Source: Minisyncoccota bacterium (lineage in GTDB: Bacteria; Patescibacteriota; Minisyncoccia; Phycocordibacterales; UBA9973). From it: 64,000 nt of DNA. The position numbers and the translations under genes were made by a program. Position 1 is the stretch's first letter, and every line of letters starts with the position of its first letter. The notes beneath the pieces are model-generated. The model saw only the letters and a program-made list of their open reading frames with translations. It made no database searches and was not told the DNA's origin. The stretch spans positions 80,189-144,188 of the forward strand of contig JAIPHX010000002.1 in the NCBI GenBank assembly GCA_021734995.1, read 5' to 3'. This document shows positions 34,490 to 64,000 of the stretch, piece by piece.

Positions 34490-34798
34490 TTTTTTATAAT
34501 TAGTCTATTAAAATATAATTTATGTTTTAATGATTAAAGTTAATTGATAAACTTTTCGCACATTTCGCACAAATAGTACTTATATAATATCTACTTAGTA
34601 GTATACCACAAATAAAATAAAAAAGCAATTAGCAAGCCTAAAAAGTGGATAGCCTGTGGATAACTTTTTGGGGCTAAAATAGCCTTACCTTATAAGGGTT
34701 TTATAGATACAGAAAATAAAAAAATATAAACATTTGATACTGAGACAAAAATAAAAAACCATCCATACGGCGGTTTTTTATTAATTTAGAAATCTAAA

Positions 34799-40659: not shown

Positions 40660-40965
40660 CTACACTAGCTCTATTTTTTTACCTAAGGCTTTGGATATTT
40701 TATACAAAGTACCTAAAGAAAAACTATGCTTTCCACTTTCTATACGAGAAATAAAGGATTGTGGTAATTTTGTCTTTTCAGCAATAGTTTTTTGTGTCAT
40801 TTTCTTTTGAATGCGCGTATTTCTAATTTTTTTTACTAAGTACAAACGAGAAATCTCTTCATAGTAAACTTTTTGATAGAATTTTGATTTTGAAAATTGA
40901 TCAAAAACATCTTTACTAGAATAAAGCTTTAGCGGACTTTTGATTTTTTTATTTTTTTTAATCAT
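40660..40965 (-). CDS. XRE-family HTH antitoxin (HigA-like)
   Basis: MTQKTIAEKTKLPQSFISRIESGK helix-turn-helix; directly downstream of, and overlapping by 4 nt with, the toxin-like gene. Confidence 0.7.
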   Translation of the reverse strand: MIKKNKKIKSPLKLYSSKDVFDQFSKSKFYQKVYYEEISRLYLVKKIRNTRIQKKMTQKTIAEKTKLPQSFISRIESGKHSFSLGTLYKISKALGKKIELV

Positions 40966-41270
40966 ATATTATATTTAATATACTTATATACTTTCTCCAT
41001 TTGAAATAAATAACTTTTCGGGGTTTTGGATGTCTTCTTAATAAAAATATAAATAAAATATATATTTTTATCTTTCACAAAGAAAACCAAGCGGTATCTT
41101 TTTACAATCAATTCTTTAATCTCTCCTTTTAGTTTTTTAGTATAAACAACCCTGAAATCTCCCTCTTCTAAGAAACTAATAGAAGCGTGTATTTTTGCTT
41201 GATCTGTTTCTGGTAATTGTTTTATAAACAAAGAAACCTTTTCGGTAAAAAAAGAATTATACATTTTCAA
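40962..41270 (-). CDS. RelE/ParE-superfamily toxin (HigB / Gp49-like)
   Basis: 102 aa; KKLKGEIKELIVKRYRLVFFV...IYIFIKKTSKTPK resembles the HigB/Gp49 (K.L.G.L.ELR...YRI.YF...H.F.KK.QKTP) family; toxin-first order typical of higBA. Confidence 0.6.
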   Translation of the reverse strand: MKMYNSFFTEKVSLFIKQLPETDQAKIHASISFLEEGDFRVVYTKKLKGEIKELIVKRYRLVFFVKDKNIYFIYIFIKKTSKTPKSYLFQMEKVYKYIKYNI

Positions 41271-41310
41271 AATAAATATTTTATAATGAAAATTAAATCT
41301 TTCTGTTTAG

Positions 41311-41332
41311 AGTATATCAATATTGATATACT
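41311..41332. promoter_or_regulatory. Perfect 22-bp palindrome in the higBA promoter region (candidate antitoxin operator)
   Basis: AGTATATCAAT|ATTGATATACT, 41-62 bp upstream of the toxin start codon. Confidence 0.5.
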
Positions 41333-41479
41333 AGTGTCAAATATAAAAAAATCAATTATATATAAATATTGTAAATAAGTTGTAAATTAAGTATATATAT
41401 CAATAAAACATGAGGTCTGAGAAGTCTCCTGTATGGTAGACGCGTACAGGAAATTGATTTTATTTCCAAAAAAAGTATA

Positions 41480-44044: not shown

Positions 44045-44317
44045 ATGAATAAACAAGCATTAGTTGAATGGGCACACGGTAAATTAGGCGGGACAAAAGT
44101 CCAAGCTGAAGAGTTAGTAGATGGAGTCTTTGATTCTATTGTTGGTACTTTAAAAAAAGGAGATGAAGTATCAATAGCTGGTTTCGGAATTTTTTCCGTT
44201 AAAGCAAGAGCAGCAAGAATGGCTCGTAATCCAAAAACTGGAGAACAAGTAAAAGTTGCAGCTACAAAAGTTCCAAAATTCAGAGCTGCTAAAGCACTGA
44301 AGGATGCAGTAAAATAA
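44045..44317 (+). CDS. hup: HU family DNA-binding protein
   Basis: 90 aa; GFGIFSVKARAARMARNPKTGEQVKV... HU/IHF arm signature. Confidence 0.9.
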   Translation: MNKQALVEWAHGKLGGTKVQAEELVDGVFDSIVGTLKKGDEVSIAGFGIFSVKARAARMARNPKTGEQVKVAATKVPKFRAAKALKDAVK

Positions 44318-44349
44318 TTTTCTATTCGCGCGCGAACAGAAATATATCA

Positions 44350-44378
44350 AAAAGCACAGACATCGTCTGTGCTTTTTG
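44350..44378. terminator. Bidirectional terminator between convergent hup and lexA
   Basis: GCACAGAC(atc)GTCTGTGC perfect stem, A-run before and TTTTT after. Confidence 0.8.
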
Positions 44379-44396
44379 TATTATGTAGTATTTTGT

Positions 44397-44966
44397 TTAG
44401 TACTTCCTAATAACGGCTTTGACTATTGCCACGATATTCATACTATTCTCTGGGTAAATAAGTTTATAGTTTTTATTTGCTGGCTCAAGCCACATCTTTG
44501 ATCCACTTTTACTTTTGCGTAAATATTTCATAGTAAATTCTCCATCTACTTCAGCAATCACAATGTCACCTTCTTTTGCAGTATTTGTCTTTTCTACTAT
44601 TACCATATCCCCTTCTTCTATATGAGCATCAATCATAGAATCTCCATCTACTTCTAGTATGTATGTTTTTTCTGTATCTTTAACGAGAAAATCTTTTAAG
44701 TTCATACTGTCTTCAACTTCTTCGGCAGTAGAAGGAAAACCTGCTTTTACAGAACCAAGCAAAGGAACCTCTCCAAAAGAATCTGAGGGTATCAATCTGC
44801 CTAGATTATCTTTAGCAACAAAACCCATAGAAATCAATTTTTCAACCACCCTAAAAACTGCATTCTTGGACTTGAATCCAAAAATCTTCATCATCTCAGA
44901 ATATGAGGGCATTCTCTTGTTGTTTCTATAAAAAGATTCTATTTTTAATTTATATGGGTTTTGCAT
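44397..44966 (-). CDS. lexA: LexA repressor
   Basis: N-terminal winged HTH; S24 peptidase domain with GDSM (Ser nucleophile) and a downstream Lys; AG cleavage-site context; 189 aa. Confidence 0.9.
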   Translation of the reverse strand: MQNPYKLKIESFYRNNKRMPSYSEMMKIFGFKSKNAVFRVVEKLISMGFVAKDNLGRLIPSDSFGEVPLLGSVKAGFPSTAEEVEDSMNLKDFLVKDTEKTYILEVDGDSMIDAHIEEGDMVIVEKTNTAKEGDIVIAEVDGEFTMKYLRKSKSGSKMWLEPANKNYKLIYPENSMNIVAIVKAVIRKY

Positions 44967-45047
44967 TTATTATTTATATAAACTTTGTATTTATTACTTA
45001 TAAGAATTTGATTTTATTGTTTACAGAAATCTTGTATTTACTACAAT

Positions 45048-45067
45048 AGTATTATACCGATAATACT
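45048..45067. promoter_or_regulatory. Inverted repeat AGTATTA-N6-TAATACT upstream of lexA, with direct repeats TTGTATTTAYTAC at 44984-44997 and 45031-45044
   Basis: Read directly from sequence; 82-101 bp upstream of the lexA start; function unknown. Confidence 0.3.
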
Positions 45068-45255
45068 GAAGTGAGTGTAGGGAAAAATTTTTGAAAGAAA
45101 TTCCTTCTAGTATGATAACGGACTTTCCTTAAAAGTAAACGATGATCTCTCGCCTCTTTTGAATAAGATTCCCCTGCTAAAATCTTAAGATCAATCTGTC
45201 TATTGATCCTTTGTATTTCCATTTCTAACATTTTTAAATATTGTGATTGTGACAT
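45052..45255 (-). CDS. Small hypothetical protein, likely first gene of an SOS-regulated operon with lexA
   Basis: 67 aa basic protein; ~55 nt downstream of a strong LexA-box promoter (45321-45348); no domain recognised. Confidence 0.4.
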   Translation of the reverse strand: MSQSQYLKMLEMEIQRINRQIDLKILAGESYSKEARDHRLLLRKVRYHTRRNFFQKFFPTLTSVLSV

Positions 45256-45320
45256 TTTTTTATAAAAGTTACTTGTTGCTAAACGACCTAACTATTTGTT
45301 ACTAAACTAACTTGTTTTTA

Positions 45321-45348
45321 GTATATGTGAACGAGCGTTCACTGTCAA
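45321..45348 (-). promoter_or_regulatory. Sigma-70-type promoter with a Cheo-type LexA box (SOS box) in its spacer
   Basis: Minus strand reads TTGACA-gtgaacgctcgttcaca-TATACT: perfect -35, 17-bp spacer, 5/6 -10; the spacer contains the perfect palindrome GTGAACG-CT-CGTTCAC = GAAC-N4-GTTC. Confidence 0.65.
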
Positions 45349-45393
45349 GAATTTAGATGTGGATAACTACAATTCACTTTAAAAACAAAGCTT

Positions 45394-46944
45394 CTACATA
45401 GGCTTGGGACGATATTGTAAGGCTTCCAATATATGTTTATTTTGAATAATGGCAGACTGATCCAAGTCGGCAATAGTTCTAGCTACCTTCAAAATCTTTT
45501 TGTAAGCTCTCATTGATAAAGACATTTTTTCTATACTTTGAATAAATAATTCACGGGATTCTTGGGATATACTGTACGCATCAAAAAAATTTGTATCTAT
45601 CTCTCCTATATTTTTTATAGAGGTATCTATAGGGGTAGTTAAATTTTGTTTTATTGAGCTCTGTATTTTTTCTCCCATTTTTCTGCCAGCTATAACTCTT
45701 TTTTTTATCTCAACACTTGTTTCTGTTTTTTCTGTTTTATTTAAAATATTAAAATCCACTTGACCGACCGAAACCCACATGTCTATTCTGTCTACAATAG
45801 GTCCTGATAATTTTCTTTTATATTTATACAAATCTACCGCTGTGCATTTACACAAATCTTCTTTTAATGATGCATAGCCACACGGGCAAGGATTCATTGA
45901 AACAATTAAAATAAAATCAGCAGGAAAGATAATGCTTGCATTCGCCCTTGTAATTGTAATTTCTTTTGATTCTAATGGTTGTCTTAGTGCTTCTATTACC
46001 CTTCTATCAAATTCTGGAAATTCATCCAAAAACAAAACTCCCTTATGTGCCAAAGTAATCTCTCCTGGCTTTGGATTTGTCCCTCCTCCTACAATAGATG
46101 TATAAGAAGAAGTATGGTGAGGAGATCTAAAGGGTGGGTGAAATATTAAATTATTTTTATTTAATCCAACAGCAGAATGAATACTTGTTACTTCAAATAT
46201 TTCTTCATACTCTAAATCTGGCAAGATGCTAAGAAAAGCATTCGCAAGCATTGTCTTCCCTACTCCTGGTGGACCGTACATAGCAATATTGTGCTTGCCT
46301 GTCGCCGATATCTCTAATGCTCTTTTTATTGATTGTTGTCCTTTAATTTTTGCAAAGTCATTTTTGTTTTCAGTTGATAAATAATCTTGTATCATCGTCT
46401 TCTGCTTGCTTTGAGCCAAAATTTTTAACCCAAGCAAATGATTGGCAACATCTGCAAGACTTTTTACTCCAAAAATTTTGATATCTTTTACAAAGATTAC
46501 CTGTGATATATTTTCTTCTGGTAAAAAAACTTGCTTGAAACCTTTACGCCTAGCTTCTTCTACCAACGGCAATGCCCCTTTAATAGAAAATATTTTTCCA
46601 TCCAGCCCAAGTTCCCCTAAAAATATTTTATCTCTCGGGTCAAAAGAAATCTGTTTGTCTGCCAACAAAAAACATACAGCAATAGCAAGATCAAAAAAAG
46701 TCCCCTCTTTTTTTATATCAGCAGGAGACAAAGAAACTACTATTTTTTTGTTTAAACTTCTTGGAGACACAAACCCAGAATTTTTAATTGCAGAGCTAAC
46801 TCTGTCTTTTGATTCGTCTATAGATTTGTCAGGCAAGCCGATAATTGAAAAAGAGTGTAGCCCAATAGAAACATCTATCTCTATGTTTAAAATGTTTGCC
46901 TTTAAAAAATTTATTTGAGCTGAATATACTTTTGCAAAACTCAT
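45394..46944 (-). CDS. comM: YifB/ComM family Mg-chelatase-like AAA+ ATPase
   Basis: N-terminal Lon-protease-like domain, Walker A GPPGVGKT, Walker B LFLDEFPEF, C4 zinc motif; 516 aa. Confidence 0.9.
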   Translation of the reverse strand: MSFAKVYSAQINFLKANILNIEIDVSIGLHSFSIIGLPDKSIDESKDRVSSAIKNSGFVSPRSLNKKIVVSLSPADIKKEGTFFDLAIAVCFLLADKQISFDPRDKIFLGELGLDGKIFSIKGALPLVEEARRKGFKQVFLPEENISQVIFVKDIKIFGVKSLADVANHLLGLKILAQSKQKTMIQDYLSTENKNDFAKIKGQQSIKRALEISATGKHNIAMYGPPGVGKTMLANAFLSILPDLEYEEIFEVTSIHSAVGLNKNNLIFHPPFRSPHHTSSYTSIVGGGTNPKPGEITLAHKGVLFLDEFPEFDRRVIEALRQPLESKEITITRANASIIFPADFILIVSMNPCPCGYASLKEDLCKCTAVDLYKYKRKLSGPIVDRIDMWVSVGQVDFNILNKTEKTETSVEIKKRVIAGRKMGEKIQSSIKQNLTTPIDTSIKNIGEIDTNFFDAYSISQESRELFIQSIEKMSLSMRAYKKILKVARTIADLDQSAIIQNKHILEALQYRPKPM

Positions 46945-48413: not shown

Positions 48414-50537
48414 CTAGGATTTTTTGAAAAAATCTTTATCAGCTTCTTTAATAGAAAGACTGATCCTACCTTTATCGTGCTCTACTCGTAAAACTTTTAC
48501 AGGTACAATCATTCCTTCTTTTACAACATCAGTAATTCTTTCTATCCTAAAAGGAGCAAGCTCTGATACATGCACCATTCCATCAACAAAAGCATTCAAT
48601 TTCACAAAAATACCAAAGTCAGCAATCTTTACGACTTCTCCTTTAAGCATTTCTCCTGGTTGAAATTCTCTAGTCATTTCAAAAATCATTTCTTTTGCCT
48701 TCATTGCAGAATCCCCTACTCCAGTAAGATATACTGTGCCATCATCTTCTATTGTAATCTCCGCTCCAGTCTTTTCTTTTAATTCTTTTATAGTCTTTCC
48801 TCCACTACCGATCACCATTCCAATCTGGTCTGGTTTTATCTTCATAGTCAAAATCTTTGGTGCGTTTGGAGAAATATCTTTTCTAGGAGCTGAAATTTCT
48901 TTTTCAATAACATCCAAAATAGTAAGTCTTGCTTTTACGGCTTGTTTCATTGCTTCATCAAGTATTTTTATTGAAACCCCATCTACTTTCACATCAAGCT
49001 GTATTGCTGTAATACCATTTCTAGTTCCTGCCACTTTAAAATCCATATCACCATGATGATCTTCTGGCCCTTGAATATCTGTCAAAATTTTATATTTATC
49101 TTCTGATTCATACATAAGCCCCATTGCAATACCTGCAACAGGAGCTTTAATCGGCACCCCTCCGTCCATCAATGCTAAAGTACCAGCACAGATAGAAGCT
49201 TGAGAAGTAGATCCGTTTGAAGCCATTGATTCAGAAACCAAACGCATTGTATATGGAAAATCTTCTACTTTTGGCAACACCATAGCAAGAGCTTTTTCGG
49301 CTAATGCTCCGTGTCCAACTTCGCGACGATTTGTAAATCCGGCTCTTCCTGTCTCTCCTGCAGAATATGGTGGGAAGTTATAATGGTGCATAAATCTTTT
49401 TTCTATATTTGCTTCCATTCCGTCAACCATATATTTGTCTTCAGGTCCTCCCAATGTAAGCACAGAGAATACATGAGTACCTCCTCTATAAAAAATACCA
49501 GAGCCGTGCAAAATAGAAGACATCCCCCCTGCTTGAGCATACAAAGAACGAACTACATCCATTTCCCTTCCATCAGCTCTTTTGTTTTCATTTACTGCCT
49601 TTTGGTGTAAAATTTCATTTTCTTTATCGTCAAACAAATCATCTTCTAAAGCAAAATCTTCTTTCTCAGGATCTTTTTCTTTATAATATTCACGAACTAG
49701 ATTATTCCACTCTGTATGCAATTCATCTATTTCTTTTTTACCTGGACCAGAAAAAATAGCCCCCTCCATTTTTGGTAAAATCTTTTCATTAAACAAAGAG
49801 ACAGATTCATCTGCTATCTTTTCTTTAGCTAAGACTCTTTTTTCTTTACCAATCTCAGTAACTATTTTCTTTTGAAAATCTTCAAGTTTTGTAATCTCTC
49901 CGCTTGCTTTATGCAACGCTTCGGTAATACCATCTTCTGACTCCTCATGAGCAGCCGCTTCTATCATATTTATACTTTGATTTTTTCCACATACCAACAA
50001 ATCAAATTTGTATTTATCATTATCTTCTCTAAGGTTTCTAGGTGCATTTATTTTTAAAGTATCGTCATCATACTTACCAATACGTACAGCTCCGATTGGT
50101 CCATCCCAAGGAATATTTGACACTGCCAAAGCTAAAGAGGCTGCATTTACCGCAAGAACCACAGGATCATTTTCATCTAAAGAAATTACTGTCACAATCA
50201 CTTGTACAGCATGTCTGATAGATTGATCAAAAAGAGGACGAAGAGTCCTGTCTATTACACGACTAGCCAAAACTGCATCCTCTGATGGTTTTCCTTCTCT
50301 GCGCACAAAACGAGAACCTAAAATTTTACCACCAGCGTAAAACTTTTCCATATAATCCACTGTAAGATTAAAAAATCCCAAACCTGCTTGTTTGTCTCTA
50401 GACATACAAGCAGTAGCCAAAACAATAGTTTCACCATATTTTAACAATACTGATCCATGAGCTTGATCAGCCAAATCACTAAAGATAGCAGTCATTGTTT
50501 TGCCACCTATCTCTACACTATATTCTTTCTTTTCCAT
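48414..50537 (-). CDS. pnp: Polynucleotide phosphorylase
   Basis: Two RNase PH domains, KH domain (GMVIGSGGKTIKELKEKTG), C-terminal S1 domain (GEMLKGEVVKIADFGIFVKL); 707 aa. Confidence 0.95.
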   Translation of the reverse strand: MEKKEYSVEIGGKTMTAIFSDLADQAHGSVLLKYGETIVLATACMSRDKQAGLGFFNLTVDYMEKFYAGGKILGSRFVRREGKPSEDAVLASRVIDRTLRPLFDQSIRHAVQVIVTVISLDENDPVVLAVNAASLALAVSNIPWDGPIGAVRIGKYDDDTLKINAPRNLREDNDKYKFDLLVCGKNQSINMIEAAAHEESEDGITEALHKASGEITKLEDFQKKIVTEIGKEKRVLAKEKIADESVSLFNEKILPKMEGAIFSGPGKKEIDELHTEWNNLVREYYKEKDPEKEDFALEDDLFDDKENEILHQKAVNENKRADGREMDVVRSLYAQAGGMSSILHGSGIFYRGGTHVFSVLTLGGPEDKYMVDGMEANIEKRFMHHYNFPPYSAGETGRAGFTNRREVGHGALAEKALAMVLPKVEDFPYTMRLVSESMASNGSTSQASICAGTLALMDGGVPIKAPVAGIAMGLMYESEDKYKILTDIQGPEDHHGDMDFKVAGTRNGITAIQLDVKVDGVSIKILDEAMKQAVKARLTILDVIEKEISAPRKDISPNAPKILTMKIKPDQIGMVIGSGGKTIKELKEKTGAEITIEDDGTVYLTGVGDSAMKAKEMIFEMTREFQPGEMLKGEVVKIADFGIFVKLNAFVDGMVHVSELAPFRIERITDVVKEGMIVPVKVLRVEHDKGRISLSIKEADKDFFKKS

Positions 50538-50776
50538 GCTTTTTAATTTTCACTTACTTATTTTTTAAAGGACATCTCGTGATATCCCCAAAAAACAAAG
50601 CTGTGAAACACGGTTCCTCAAATGAGTTTGACTTCGTATCAAATTCTTCAGACTAAAGTATTGTTCCCTTCAGAAACCGGAACACTACTATCTGTCTGAA
50701 GATGAACCGGATTAACTTATAATTTACTATCATCCTAACACTAGGGGAGTAAAAAGCAAGACTTTTATAATTTTTA

Positions 50777-51298
50777 CTAGCGAACTTTTATATTCCCCAT
50801 CAAAAACTTTTTAGGGCTATCGGATAAGTCCACAAAATCATCTGCTGATTCTTTTAGTTTCATAGAAGTTGTTTTACCGAAAGAAACCACCTCCACTTGT
50901 GCTCCTGTATAGTTTTGTAAATATTCTACCAATGGGACAAAATCCCCATCTCCAGAAATCAAAATAACTGCGTCGAGTCTGCTTGCCATTCTCATAACAT
51001 CTACCGTAAGCCCGACATCCCAATCTCCTTTTTTACTTCCAGAGTGAAAAATCTGTAAATCTTTTGTCTTTGTCTCTATTCCAAGCTTTGTAAGAGCATC
51101 AAAAAAGTTTTTCTCTTCCCCTGCCTCTGTGGTGATCACATAAGCAATAGCACGGACAAGCTTTCTACCAGCCACTGCTTCTTTTAGCACAGCTCCGAAG
51201 TCTACTCGTGCTTTGTATAAATTGCGAGCGGAATGATATAGGTTTTGTGTGTCTATGAAAATTCCAACTCTTTGTTCTTTGTGTTTTATTACTGTCAT
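50777..51298 (-). CDS. NYN domain (LabA/DUF88-like) protein
   Basis: VGIFIDTQNLYHSAR...ILISGDGDFVPLVEYLQ matches the NYN/PIN-like ribonuclease fold. Confidence 0.7.
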   Translation of the reverse strand: MTVIKHKEQRVGIFIDTQNLYHSARNLYKARVDFGAVLKEAVAGRKLVRAIAYVITTEAGEEKNFFDALTKLGIETKTKDLQIFHSGSKKGDWDVGLTVDVMRMASRLDAVILISGDGDFVPLVEYLQNYTGAQVEVVSFGKTTSMKLKESADDFVDLSDSPKKFLMGNIKVR

Positions 51299-60717: not shown

Positions 60718-60982
60718 ACAACTTAGTGTCTATTTAATTATTCTTTATATGTCCTTTATATCTATCTTTTAAAATAAAGATATACTGTGAATATGTGGAT
60801 AACTTTGTGGGTATTGTTTATAAAGGACATATTTAAACTGTCTAATAAAAGACCAAAAAACCAAATATATGCTTATAATATAAGGTTATCTTAATAAAAG
60901 ACACTAAAAAATAATAAAGTGTTTCACGTGATAGAAGTTTCATAAAGAACCATTATTTAAAATTTATATCTTGCTTATATAA

Positions 60983-63546: not shown

Positions 63547-64000
63547 TAAGAGAAGCCCAAAAAAGACTCCGGGAAGTAGGGGGGAAGATCTAAGGTGGGA
63601 TATGTATAGTCTTTTTTTAATGAGTCTAACAAGTATTGTAGATATCTCGGCAAGCGACCTGTCTGGATTTGCACCCAGAAATCCGATATTATCGGCATAA
63701 ATAGCTCTATTTTAAGCTTTTTGGTACATTTAAAGGCTATTTTAGCTCTTTTTTCCCAAAAAACTGAGAGATTTCTACAAAATTACAATCTTTCCAGCGT
63801 TTCTATCGTGGTCTTTCCTGCTTCTGATACCGTGTACTATTAAGGGTAGCCCAATACAAAAGGGAAGTCAAATGGTTATCCACACCCAAAACAAAATCAT
63901 TTTCATTTATTTTTAAAAAAACTAAGTTATTTATAAAAATTAAATTTAATATTCCTTAAAAAGCTTTTTATTTTTACTATGTAATAAAATTTATTATATT

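What the first reader, a model, noticed from the sequence alone, without database searches (positions are those of the whole stretch)
45031..45350. Textbook SOS promoter: Cheo-type LexA box (GAAC-N4-GTTC) embedded between perfect -35 and -10 elements, driving a small ORF plus lexA
On the minus strand, 45348 to 45321 reads TTGACA-gtgaacgctcgttcaca-TATACT: a perfect -35 hexamer, an exactly 17-bp spacer and a 5/6 -10. The spacer consists of the perfect palindrome GTGAACG-CT-CGTTCAC. Its core, GAAC-N4-GTTC with RNRY centre, is the Firmicutes/Actinobacteria-type LexA (DinR) operator. The promoter is ~55 nt upstream of a 67-aa ORF (45052-45255) that is followed by lexA. This argues that (i) LexA here recognises a Cheo-type box, (ii) the small ORF is a genuine SOS gene co-transcribed with lexA, and (iii) the regulon can now be predicted. 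No second GAAC-N4-GTTC was found by eye upstream of recO, recJ, ssb, comM or xth in this window. That is informative about how small the regulon may be, but it needs a computational scan. Between the small ORF and lexA there are additionally two direct repeats TTGTATTTAYTAC (44984-44997, 45031-45044) and an inverted repeat AGTATTA-N6-TAATACT (45048-45067) of unknown role.
Basis: partly seen in the sequence, partly recalled or inferred. Interest (0 to 1): 0.55.

Follow-up and report, generated by a model that had tools for sequence, protein, structure and literature searches.

The report
Autoregulated lexA operon promoter, CPR bacterium

Summary
On the minus strand, 45348..45320 reads TTGACA-(17 nt)-TATACT, and the spacer holds the palindrome GTGAACG-CT-CGTTCAC (45342..45327). 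All 80 related species genomes (Nomurabacteria/Paceibacterota) have GTGAACG-NN-CGTTCAC in the same promoter position, with invariant arms and a variable centre. The same palindrome precedes LexA homologues of only 33-58% identity, most of which lack the small ORF. LexA is therefore the likely binder, though binding is inferred, not shown.

The 67-aa ORF is a genuine, purifying-selected gene that usually abuts or overlaps lexA. It is a helical hairpin with no known family.

The "direct repeats" before lexA are a window-specific, degenerate 24-nt tandem duplication that runs into the lexA start codon. I attach no function to them.

No second operator occurs in the window, in 520 kb of related loci, or upstream of this genome's recA. 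The regulon looks very small and probably excludes recA.

Verdict: an ordinary LexA self-repression mechanism with a GAAC-N4-GTTC core. The Patescibacteria SOS network was studied in 2017, but I could not read that paper. The possible DnaA input and the small protein are the interesting parts.

The parts
45358..45366 (-). DnaA box TTATCCACA, 9 nt upstream of the -35 and 15 nt upstream of the palindrome
   Evidence: Exact consensus in the window. Exact at 14-16 nt from the palindrome in 70 of 79 loci scored; L080 has it at 6 nt. Only 3 other exact boxes occur in 520 kb of related loci. DnaA binding is inferred, not tested.
45343..45348 (-). -35 hexamer TTGACA
   Evidence: Exact TTGACA at 0-1 nt from the palindrome in 74 of 79 loci.
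45327..45342 (.). Predicted LexA operator: 16-bp palindrome GTGAACG-NN-CGTTCAC that fills the promoter spacer
   Evidence: Identical arms in 80/80 related loci with a variable centre (CT/AG/TT/AA/AT/GT). Also found in the promoters of distant lexA homologues.
45320..45325 (-). -10 hexamer TATACT
   Evidence: TATACT in 73 of 80 loci and TATAAT in 4.
45311..45315 (-). Predicted transcription start, about 7 nt after the -10
   Evidence: Inference from the promoter geometry. Supported by three related loci in which the small ORF's ATG begins 6 nt after the -10, implying leaderless mRNA (L034, L042, L067). Not mapped experimentally.
45276..45288 (-). Leader motif GGTCGTTTAGCAA, the window's copy of a recurrent GTCG...TTAGYA leader element
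   Evidence: GTCG occurs within 35 nt of the -10 in 53 of 80 loci against 7% background. GTCG followed by TTAGYA occurs in 25 of 80 against 0.2%. In the window the motif lies further downstream than in most loci. Function unknown.
45052..45255 (-). Small gene: 67-aa helical-hairpin protein of a family that matches no Pfam, NCBIfam or PHROGs model
   Evidence: Conserved in 78 of 80 related loci as MSQxQYLKMLEREIQKINKKIDLKILxGExYxKEARDHKLLL..; the other two are L047 (N-terminally truncated) and L059 (ORF seen by eye). Codon-position differences 0.20/0.14/0.50, other frames closed. No Pfam, NCBIfam or PHROGs hit. AlphaFold2 pLDDT 86.7, two long helices. 298 clusters at 50% identity; the 150 best listed are nearly all short (34-133 aa).
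44960..45040 (-). Degenerate 24-nt tandem array (3.4 copies) that forms the spacer between the small ORF and lexA and runs into the lexA start codon.
   Evidence: Tandem Repeats Finder: period 24, 74% matches. Three-copy alignment. The repeat motif is absent from all 80 related loci, most of which have a gap of -8 to +11 nt here. No stable fold, z = -0.17.
44397..44966 (-). lexA (189 aa)
   Evidence: Peptidase_S24, E = 1.4e-27. TIGR00498 lexA equivalog 120.2 bits against a cut-off of 110.95. Near full-length match (residues 9-187, including the N-terminal region) to the LexA structure 3k2z. Ala75-Gly76, Ser110 and Lys147 are invariant in 27 homologues.
44348..44378 (.). Bidirectional intrinsic terminator shared by lexA and the convergent HU gene; end of the operon
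   Evidence: 14-bp stem followed by a T-run on both strands.

Best explanation
This is the single, self-repressed promoter of a two-gene SOS operon (small helical-hairpin protein, then LexA) in a Candidatus Pacebacteria / Paceibacterota genome (GCA_021734465.1).

Proposed mechanism:
- A LexA dimer binds the 16-bp palindrome GTGAACG-NN-CGTTCAC. The palindrome occupies the whole spacer between a consensus -35 (TTGACA) and a near-consensus -10 (TATACT), so bound LexA excludes RNA polymerase.
- After DNA damage, RecA-stimulated self-cleavage of LexA (Ala75-Gly76 bond, Ser110/Lys147 dyad) frees a very strong promoter.
- The small protein and new LexA are then made from one transcript that ends at the terminator at 44378-44348.
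- A DnaA box 15 nt upstream of the operator probably adds a second input that reports replication status.

Shown here: the sequence anatomy, its conservation, the operon structure, that the small ORF is coding, and that the 189-aa protein is a LexA. Inferred: LexA binding, damage induction, DnaA binding and its sign. The function of the small protein is unknown; my preferred guess is a damage/replication checkpoint effector.

The regulon appears very small and does not include recA in this genome.
For: - Anatomy.
- Conservation: 80 of 80 species-level loci have the palindrome in the same promoter position, with invariant arms, a variable centre, and flanks that otherwise cannot be aligned.
- Distant homologues: the same palindrome lies between the -35 and -10 of lexA genes at 33-58% identity. 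Most of these lack the small ORF and several are leaderless: L122, L140, L167, L148, L206, L286. L169 has the DnaA box and a divergent small ORF.
- LexA identity.
- Operon: the small ORF stop abuts or overlaps the lexA start in most loci, three loci are leaderless from this promoter, and no terminator or promoter-like site lies in between.
- Coding signature of the small ORF.
- DnaA box: exact and position-fixed in 70 of 79 loci, yet rare elsewhere. It is absent from the six lexA promoters that lack the small ORF.
- Small regulon: no other site in the window (up to 3 mismatches of 14), in 520 kb of related loci (up to 2 mismatches), or in the 9.6 kb beyond the window that holds recA.
- An operator in the spacer that occludes RNA polymerase is the standard LexA mechanism (PMC4234289).
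Against: - No binding or expression data exist for this organism. All 80 operators are identical, so nothing is known about which variants LexA tolerates, and weaker regulon sites could have been missed.
- The locus is strongly syntenic (comM upstream in 68 of 80 loci, HU downstream in 64 of 80), so the 80 loci are not fully independent observations.
- The Pfam LexA_DNA_bind match is below threshold (E = 0.0058).
- PMC7739468 groups the 2017 Patescibacteria study with papers on LexA proteins that evolved direct-repeat motifs. The published motif for at least some Patescibacteria may therefore differ from this palindrome. I could not read that paper.
- The DnaA box is a single site, and DnaA binding to it is untested.
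Confidence: 0.75

Rival explanations
1. The palindrome is the operator of a regulator other than LexA, for example the small ORF product or an unlinked dimeric transcription factor. On this view LexA does not control its own promoter through it.
For: No binding data exist. The small protein is always encoded next to the site within the Paceibacteria set. Iterons with the identical 16-mer occur in a phage replication origin, where an HTH_36 protein is the likelier binder, so other proteins can evidently read this sequence.
Against: The palindrome tracks lexA, not the small ORF. Six lexA promoters from distant lineages carry it without any small ORF. The small protein is a bare helical hairpin with no recognisable DNA-binding fold. 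Self-repression is the rule for LexA, and GAAC-N4-GTTC is the established LexA core in Bacillus and Clostridium (PMC4234289).
Confidence: 0.1
2. In this particular genome, lexA is transcribed mainly from a proximal promoter created within the 85-nt tandem-repeat spacer. The distal promoter would then chiefly serve the small ORF.
For: Unlike most relatives, this genome has an 85-nt A/T-rich gap made of degenerate 24-nt repeats just before lexA. A/T-rich sequence easily yields weak promoter-like hexamers.
Against: No minus-strand promoter-like site scoring 9/12 or better lies in 44967-45051. No terminator or stable hairpin separates the two genes. In the large majority of related loci the genes abut or overlap, which leaves no room for a proximal promoter.
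Confidence: 0.1
3. The inverted repeat acts at the RNA or DNA-structure level, for example as the comM terminator or a cruciform, rather than as a protein operator.
For: It lies 52 nt downstream of the comM stop codon and is a perfect 7+7 inverted repeat.
Against: The loop would be only 2 nt, and no T-run follows. The arms are invariant in sequence across 80 species with no compensatory changes, while the centre varies; this is the signature of a protein site, not of a structure. The site keeps a fixed register with the -35 and -10, including in loci without comM upstream. The terminator scan does not call it.
Confidence: 0.02
4. The conserved TTATCCACA is not a DnaA site. It could be the target of another factor, or an upstream promoter element specific to this operon.
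For: There is only one box, whereas DnaA often prefers paired or clustered sites. No DnaA data exist for Patescibacteria. The box was identified only by its match to the consensus.
Against: It is the exact 9-mer consensus, is conserved in 70 of 79 loci at a spacing fixed to within one base, and is rare elsewhere. The same 9-mer flanks the iterons of a low-GC phage origin, the classical setting for DnaA boxes. Joint control by DnaA and LexA has a precedent at E. coli uvrB (PMC6015884).
Confidence: 0.25

Closest known systems
Cheo box / DinR (LexA) operators of Bacillus and Clostridium (GAAC-N4-GTTC)
   Same: The same GAAC-N4-GTTC core, a dimeric palindrome, overlap with the promoter, and self-repression of lexA (PMC4234289).
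   Different: The arms are longer and differently flanked: GTGAACG...CGTTCAC rather than CGAAC...GTTCG. The centre is an invariant G-NN-C instead of A/T-rich. No box precedes recA here, whereas recA is a core target in Firmicutes.
Patescibacteria DNA-damage network (Sanchez-Osuna, Barbe and Erill, Environ Microbiol 2017;19:3465)
   Same: The same superphylum and the same regulator; that paper is the prior comparative-genomics study of this network (cited in PMC8565304 and PMC7739468).
   Different: I could not read it because it is not held. PMC7739468 cites it among cases of direct-repeat LexA motifs, so the motif it reports may or may not be this palindrome. I cannot tell whether it noted the DnaA box or the small ORF.
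E. coli uvrB promoter region, co-regulated by LexA and DnaA
   Same: A LexA box between the -35 and -10, plus DnaA box(es) in the same promoter region. This links an SOS gene to replication status (PMC6015884).
   Different: At uvrB there are several promoters and multiple DnaA sites, and the target is a repair gene. Here there is one box at a fixed position upstream of the lexA operon's only promoter, and its effect is unknown.
B. subtilis Sda, a replication/damage checkpoint protein (from my own knowledge, not checked here)
   Same: A very small helical-hairpin protein whose promoter carries DnaA boxes and which responds to replication stress and DNA damage.
   Different: No sequence similarity was detected; no Pfam family hits the small protein at E <= 0.01. 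Sda targets sporulation kinases, which these organisms lack. Sda is not co-transcribed with lexA.
SOS-induced small division inhibitors encoded beside lexA (SulA, YneA, SosA, ChiZ, SidA; from my own knowledge)
   Same: A small protein under presumed LexA control, encoded next to lexA.
   Different: No homology to any of them, no clear transmembrane segment or LysM domain, and co-directional and upstream of lexA rather than divergent. The assignment is speculative.

Membership tests
LexA repressor (TIGR00498; wHTH + S24 peptidase) | C-terminal S24 peptidase domain with a Ser/Lys catalytic dyad | tested here: met
   PF00717, E = 1.4e-27. Ser110 (GDSM) and Lys147 are invariant in 27 homologues.
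LexA repressor (TIGR00498; wHTH + S24 peptidase) | Ala-Gly self-cleavage site in the linker | tested here: met
   Ala75-Gly76 (V-x-AG-F/L/I-P) is invariant.
LexA repressor (TIGR00498; wHTH + S24 peptidase) | N-terminal LexA-type winged-helix DNA-binding domain | tested here: met
   Pfam LexA_DNA_bind alone is sub-threshold (E = 0.0058). However, the full-length TIGR00498 equivalog scores 120.2 against a cut-off of 110.95, and the profile aligns residues 9-187, including the N-terminal region, to the LexA structure 3k2z.
LexA repressor (TIGR00498; wHTH + S24 peptidase) | RecA-stimulated self-cleavage and damage-inducible derepression | not testable with these tools
   Needs biochemistry or transcriptomics. 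An intein-containing recA is present 0.6 kb beyond the window.
LexA repressor (TIGR00498; wHTH + S24 peptidase) | Operator in its own promoter (self-repression) | tested here: met
   Conserved palindrome in the lexA-operon promoter in 80/80 loci and in seven more distant lexA loci. Binding is inferred.
Cheo-type (Gram-positive) LexA box | GAAC-N4-GTTC core | tested here: met
   GAACGCTCGTTC on the minus strand.
Cheo-type (Gram-positive) LexA box | CGAAC...GTTCG flanks and an A/T-rich RNRY centre (CGAACRNRYGTTYC) | tested here: not met
   The flanks are TGAAC...GTTCA and the centre is an invariant G-NN-C in 80/80 loci. RNRY fits the window only on the + strand (GAGC).
Cheo-type (Gram-positive) LexA box | Boxes upstream of core SOS genes such as recA | tested here: not met
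L307 has no site with up to 3 mismatches and no GAAC-N4-GTTC anywhere in its 15.9 kb, which include this genome's ftsK-orf-recA. None lies upstream of recA in four other Parcubacteria loci.
DnaA box | 9-mer matching TTATCCACA | tested here: met
   Exact at 45366..45358.
DnaA box | Bound by DnaA, with an effect on transcription | not testable with these tools
   Only conservation (70 of 79 at fixed spacing) and rarity elsewhere support function.
SOS cell-division inhibitors (SulA/YneA/SosA/SidA) | Homology or a shared domain (SulA fold, LysM, transmembrane anchor) | tested here: not met
   No Pfam, NCBIfam or PHROGs hit. No PDB fold match with E below 1. The C-terminal tail NFFQKFFPTLTSVLSV is aromatic and hydrophobic but too short and too interrupted to be a canonical transmembrane helix (read from the sequence).
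Sda-like checkpoint proteins | Helical hairpin expressed from a promoter with DnaA boxes | tested here: inconclusive
   AlphaFold2 predicts a helical hairpin and a DnaA box is present. There is no sequence similarity to any Pfam family and no functional data. This is a resemblance, not membership.

The most novel reading that the evidence does not exclude
In Paceibacteria the SOS regulon has shrunk to a single operon. Its only effector besides LexA itself is a conserved, roughly 65-aa helical-hairpin protein, and the promoter combines two signals: DNA damage through LexA and replication-initiation status through DnaA. The small protein would then be a minimal checkpoint effector of ultra-small CPR cells, for example an inhibitor of division or of replication initiation, and a new protein family with that role.
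Probability: 0.2. Interest if true: 0.7.

Novelty: new member of a known kind. Interest (0 to 1): 0.4.

Why it matters
Patescibacteria (CPR) are uncultivated, ultra-small, host-dependent bacteria whose regulation is almost unstudied. This promoter gives three things:
- A sharply defined operator (GTGAACG-NN-CGTTCAC) that can be scanned genome-wide to define the SOS regulon of a large CPR clade.
- Evidence that the regulon is tiny and excludes recA in this genome. If that is general, SOS here is mainly a switch for one small protein.
- A conserved DnaA box at fixed spacing, which suggests that replication status and DNA damage converge on the same promoter.

The small protein is a testable candidate for a CPR cell-cycle checkpoint factor. 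None of this changes the basic picture of how LexA works.

Tried and rejected
- **Direct repeats as the true LexA site.** I first suspected that the repeats near lexA (GTARTAAATACAA) were the real LexA site, because PMC7739468 lists the Patescibacteria study among direct-repeat LexA motifs. I rejected this. The motif occurs in none of the 80 related loci, most of which have no gap there. It is part of a degenerate 24-nt tandem duplication that includes the lexA start.
- **Metagenome scan for other regulon members.** I used a pattern built to exclude lexA-type promoters. Hits were mostly chance matches inside genes of high-GC organisms. Its only useful yield was five more lexA promoters.
- **Viral-contig scan.** It gave two more distant lexA promoters and one phage origin with iterons, but no SOS-controlled phage genes that I could recognise.
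- **One-mismatch GAAC-N4-GTTC sites in the window.** All lie inside ORFs except 50605, which sits in the PNPase leader. I rejected them as operators.
- **Function of the small protein.** Pfam, NCBIfam, PHROGs, a Foldseek search of the PDB and a 1.8-billion-protein profile search gave nothing informative.
- **Rfam and folding of the region from the small ORF to lexA.** No match in that stretch; the only sub-threshold matches sit on the terminator downstream of lexA.
- **RNAalifold on the 5' leader hairpin.** It predicted no structure. Explicit pair counting was needed.
- **The 2017 Patescibacteria SOS paper.** It is not in the library.
Full report
**1. Observation**

On the minus strand the window reads TTGACA (45348..45343), gtgaacgctcgttcaca (17 nt) and TATACT (45325..45320). 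The palindrome GTGAACG-CT-CGTTCAC lies at 45342..45327.

This is the best sigma-70-like site in 44200-45600, at 11/12. Only four sites in the whole window reach 11/12 or better, and this is the only one of them with a 17-nt spacer. It is the only exact GAAC-N4-GTTC in 64 kb. One-mismatch variants are not enriched: 9 were found against 16.6 expected. All of those lie inside ORFs except one in the PNPase leader.

Downstream on the same strand lie a 67-aa ORF (45052-45255) and a 189-aa gene (44397-44966), followed by a bidirectional terminator at 44378-44348.

**2. Organism and the repressor**

The window is the reverse complement of about 2977-66976 of contig JAIPIX010000003.1, from assembly GCA_021734465.1, a Candidatus Pacebacteria (Patescibacteria/CPR) metagenome-assembled genome.

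The 189-aa protein is a LexA on four counts:
- It has a Peptidase_S24 domain (E = 1.4e-27).
- It scores 120.2 bits on the TIGR00498 lexA equivalog, above the cut-off of 110.95.
- Its family profile aligns nearly end to end (residues 9-187), including the N-terminal region, with the LexA crystal structure 3k2z.
- The Ala75-Gly76 cleavage site and the Ser110/Lys147 dyad are invariant in 27 homologues.

The candidate recognition-helix segment (FKSKNA...) is invariant across those homologues. That predicts a conserved operator.

**3. Comparative test of the operator**

I fetched 80 loci, one per GTDB species (Nomurabacteria/Paceibacterota), whose LexA is 65-77% identical to the window's.

- Every locus has exactly one GAAC-N4-GTTC within 800 nt upstream of lexA, always as GTGAACG-NN-CGTTCAC. 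I estimate about 0.01 per locus by chance from base composition.
- The site always sits between the promoter hexamers. TTGACA lies 0-1 nt upstream in 74 of 79 loci, and TATACT lies one base downstream in 73 of 80.
- The arms never vary, the 2-nt centre does (CT, AG, TT, AA, AT, GT), and the surrounding intergenic DNA cannot be aligned. This is the footprint of a dimeric DNA-binding protein rather than of an RNA structure.

Scans of metagenome and viral contigs for the 16-mer added seven lexA loci whose LexA is only 33-58% identical. Contig GC content reaches 0.59. In each, the same palindrome lies between -35-like and -10-like hexamers. Six of the seven have no small ORF, and lexA follows directly. 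In several of them the ATG lies only about 7-8 nt after the -10, so the mRNA is probably leaderless.

lexA is therefore the only gene that is always downstream of the palindrome. This argues that LexA, not the small protein, is the binder. Binding itself remains an inference.

**4. The small ORF**

A homologous ORF lies between the promoter and lexA in 78 of the 80 related loci. Its consensus is MSQSQYLKMLEREIQKINKKIDLKILxGExYxKEARDHKLLLxKVRYHTRR, followed by an aromatic, basic tail. Of the other two loci, L047 has an N-terminally truncated copy. In L059 a GIY-YIG-like ORF is inserted after the promoter and the small ORF follows it (read by eye).

- Pairwise nucleotide differences at codon positions 1/2/3 are 0.20/0.14/0.50, and the other two frames are closed in 78-79 of 79 loci. 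It is a protein-coding gene under purifying selection.
- In most loci its stop codon abuts or overlaps the lexA start (gap of -8 to +11 nt).
- In three loci its ATG starts 6 nt after the -10, implying leaderless mRNA. This ties the ORF directly to this promoter.
- The protein matches no Pfam, NCBIfam or PHROGs family.
- A profile search of 1.84 billion representative proteins found 298 clusters. The 150 best listed are nearly all short (34-133 aa), with no large multidomain protein among them.
- AlphaFold2 predicts a confident helical hairpin (pLDDT 86.7; helices 3-27 and 32-57). No significant PDB fold neighbour was found.

Its function is unknown.

**5. The repeats before lexA**

The 85-nt gap between the small ORF and lexA is peculiar to this genome. 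The motif GTARTAAATACAA occurs in none of the other 80 loci. Tandem Repeats Finder calls a degenerate 24-nt array of 3.4 copies with 74% matches at 44960-45040, and it runs into the lexA start codon.

The region has no stable fold (z = -0.17), no Rfam match and no promoter-like site scoring 9/12 or better on the minus strand. The inverted repeat at 45067..45048 overlaps the small ORF's stop codon in a part of the locus that varies among relatives. I attach no function to any of these elements.

**6. A conserved DnaA box**

The consensus DnaA box TTATCCACA lies at 45366..45358, 9 nt upstream of the -35. The exact 9-mer is present at 14-16 nt from the palindrome in 70 of 79 loci, and at 6 nt in one more. 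Only three other exact copies occur in the remaining 520 kb of those loci.

The box travels with the promoter when the upstream gene is not comM. It is present in the distant locus L169, which has a divergent small ORF. It is absent from the six lexA promoters that lack the small ORF. This co-occurrence suggests that the box is linked to expression of the small protein.

Joint control by DnaA and LexA has an experimental precedent at E. coli uvrB (PMC6015884). DnaA binding here, and whether it activates or represses, are untested.

**7. Regulon**

- No second site with up to 3 mismatches of 14 exists in the window.
- No second site with up to 2 mismatches exists in the 80 related loci.
- A Logan contig that is 100% identical to the window over 6254 nt extends it by 9.6 kb. 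The extension holds ftsK, a 114-aa ORF and an intein-containing recA. That locus contains no palindrome and not even a GAAC-N4-GTTC core.
- Four further Parcubacteria recA loci with the same gene order have no site upstream of recA. I did not establish which LexA type those four genomes carry.

The regulon is either very small or uses operators too degenerate to recognise from an invariant training set.

**8. Mechanism**

I take this to be a classical self-repressed SOS promoter. The LexA dimer occupies the entire spacer of a near-consensus promoter and excludes RNA polymerase. RecA-stimulated self-cleavage then releases a burst of the small protein and of new LexA. DnaA probably modulates the same promoter.

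Section 3 shows why LexA, rather than another regulator, is the likely binder. The evidence against a proximal lexA promoter, against a structural role for the inverted repeat, and against the box being something other than a DnaA site is set out under the rival explanations.

**9. Relation to what is known**

The core GAAC-N4-GTTC is that of the Bacillus/Clostridium Cheo box (PMC4234289). The flanks (TGAAC/GTTCA) and the invariant G-NN-C centre differ, and recA is not a target here. So it works like a Cheo-type operator without fitting the CGAACRNRYGTTYC consensus.

LexA-binding motifs are known to vary widely between phyla (PMC8565304). The Patescibacteria SOS network was analysed in 2017 (Environ Microbiol 19:3465, cited), but that paper is not in the library. 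I therefore cannot say whether this palindrome, the small ORF or the DnaA box were reported there. PMC7739468 cites it among direct-repeat LexA motifs.

I file the finding as a new member of a known kind. The DnaA box and the small protein are its less ordinary features.

**10. Verdict**

The mechanism is ordinary. Interest is moderate (0.4), and rests on three points: the apparently minimal regulon, the conserved DnaA box, and the uncharacterised small protein co-induced with LexA.

Noticed in passing
window 34655-34663 (-), 60794-60802 (-), 63876-63884 (+): The three other exact TTATCCACA boxes in the window all lie between the long ORFs I used as gene proxies. The one at 34663 is followed by a second, near-consensus box (TATCCAC) and by -35-like and -10-like hexamers. 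These may be further DnaA-controlled promoters.
   Followed up: partly
window 40660-41340 (-): A HigB-like (Gp49/DUF891) plus HTH_3 antitoxin-like pair sits behind a promoter TTGACA-18-TATACT (41340..41311). Its spacer and -10 form a perfect 22-bp palindrome, AGTATATCAATATTGATATACT. This looks like a second operator-in-promoter, self-repressed operon in the same window.
   Followed up: partly
L307 6846-9023 (-), 0.6-2.8 kb beyond window position 1: This genome's recA carries an intein with a LAGLIDADG domain (725 aa). It sits directly behind ftsK and a 114-aa ORF, and this gene order is shared by other Parcubacteria. No LexA palindrome is nearby.
   Followed up: partly
L270 7880-8150 (IMG/VR contig IMGVR_UViG_3300005821_000004, GC 0.35): A phage-like contig with a small terminase gene nearby has five iterons, GGTAGTGAACGAnCGTTCAC-like. 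They lie inside a 321-aa HTH_36 gene that I take to be a replication protein. One iteron is identical to the window's 16-bp operator. Two TTATCCACA boxes flank them. This resembles an origin inside a replication gene, and the iterons may mimic the host LexA operator.
   Followed up: partly
related loci L001, L007, L021, L032, L041, L050, L057, L058, L061-L063, L070, L071, L073, L077 (first ~25 nt of the leader): A 5'-terminal hairpin with the loop AAGUCG and compensatory stem changes (GACC/GGUC, AGCC/GGCU, GGUC/GACC). On my 16-sequence alignment, 79.5% of cells are paired against 22-46% for slid controls, and 3 of 5 pairs show double changes. More generally, GTCG occurs within 35 nt of the -10 in 53 of 80 loci, often followed by TTAGTA. 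The window has only the sequence motif (45288..45276), not the hairpin.
   Followed up: partly
related loci L014, L027, L028, L029, L048, L055 (5' leader of the small ORF): A palindromic insertion of about 50 nt (tacccctacccagcctccccctaNNtagggggagg...) recurs in the leader of several species. It looks like a small mobile repeat (MITE-like) that is tolerated between the promoter and the small ORF.
   Followed up: no
L059 (between promoter and small ORF): A 91-aa ORF is inserted between the LexA-controlled promoter and the small ORF. Its sequence (YVYVL...GYANNL...) looks GIY-YIG-like by eye. If so, a nuclease gene has landed inside the operon.
   Followed up: no
window 50540-50780 (-): A leader of about 240 nt lies upstream of the PNPase gene (48414-50537) and contains the only intergenic one-mismatch GAAC-N4-GTTC (50605). 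It is likely a structured pnp leader, unrelated to LexA.
   Followed up: partly
L122, L140, L148, L034, L042, L067: In several lineages the first gene of the operon (lexA or the small ORF) starts 6-8 nt after the -10. This implies leaderless mRNAs from the LexA-controlled promoter.
   Followed up: partly
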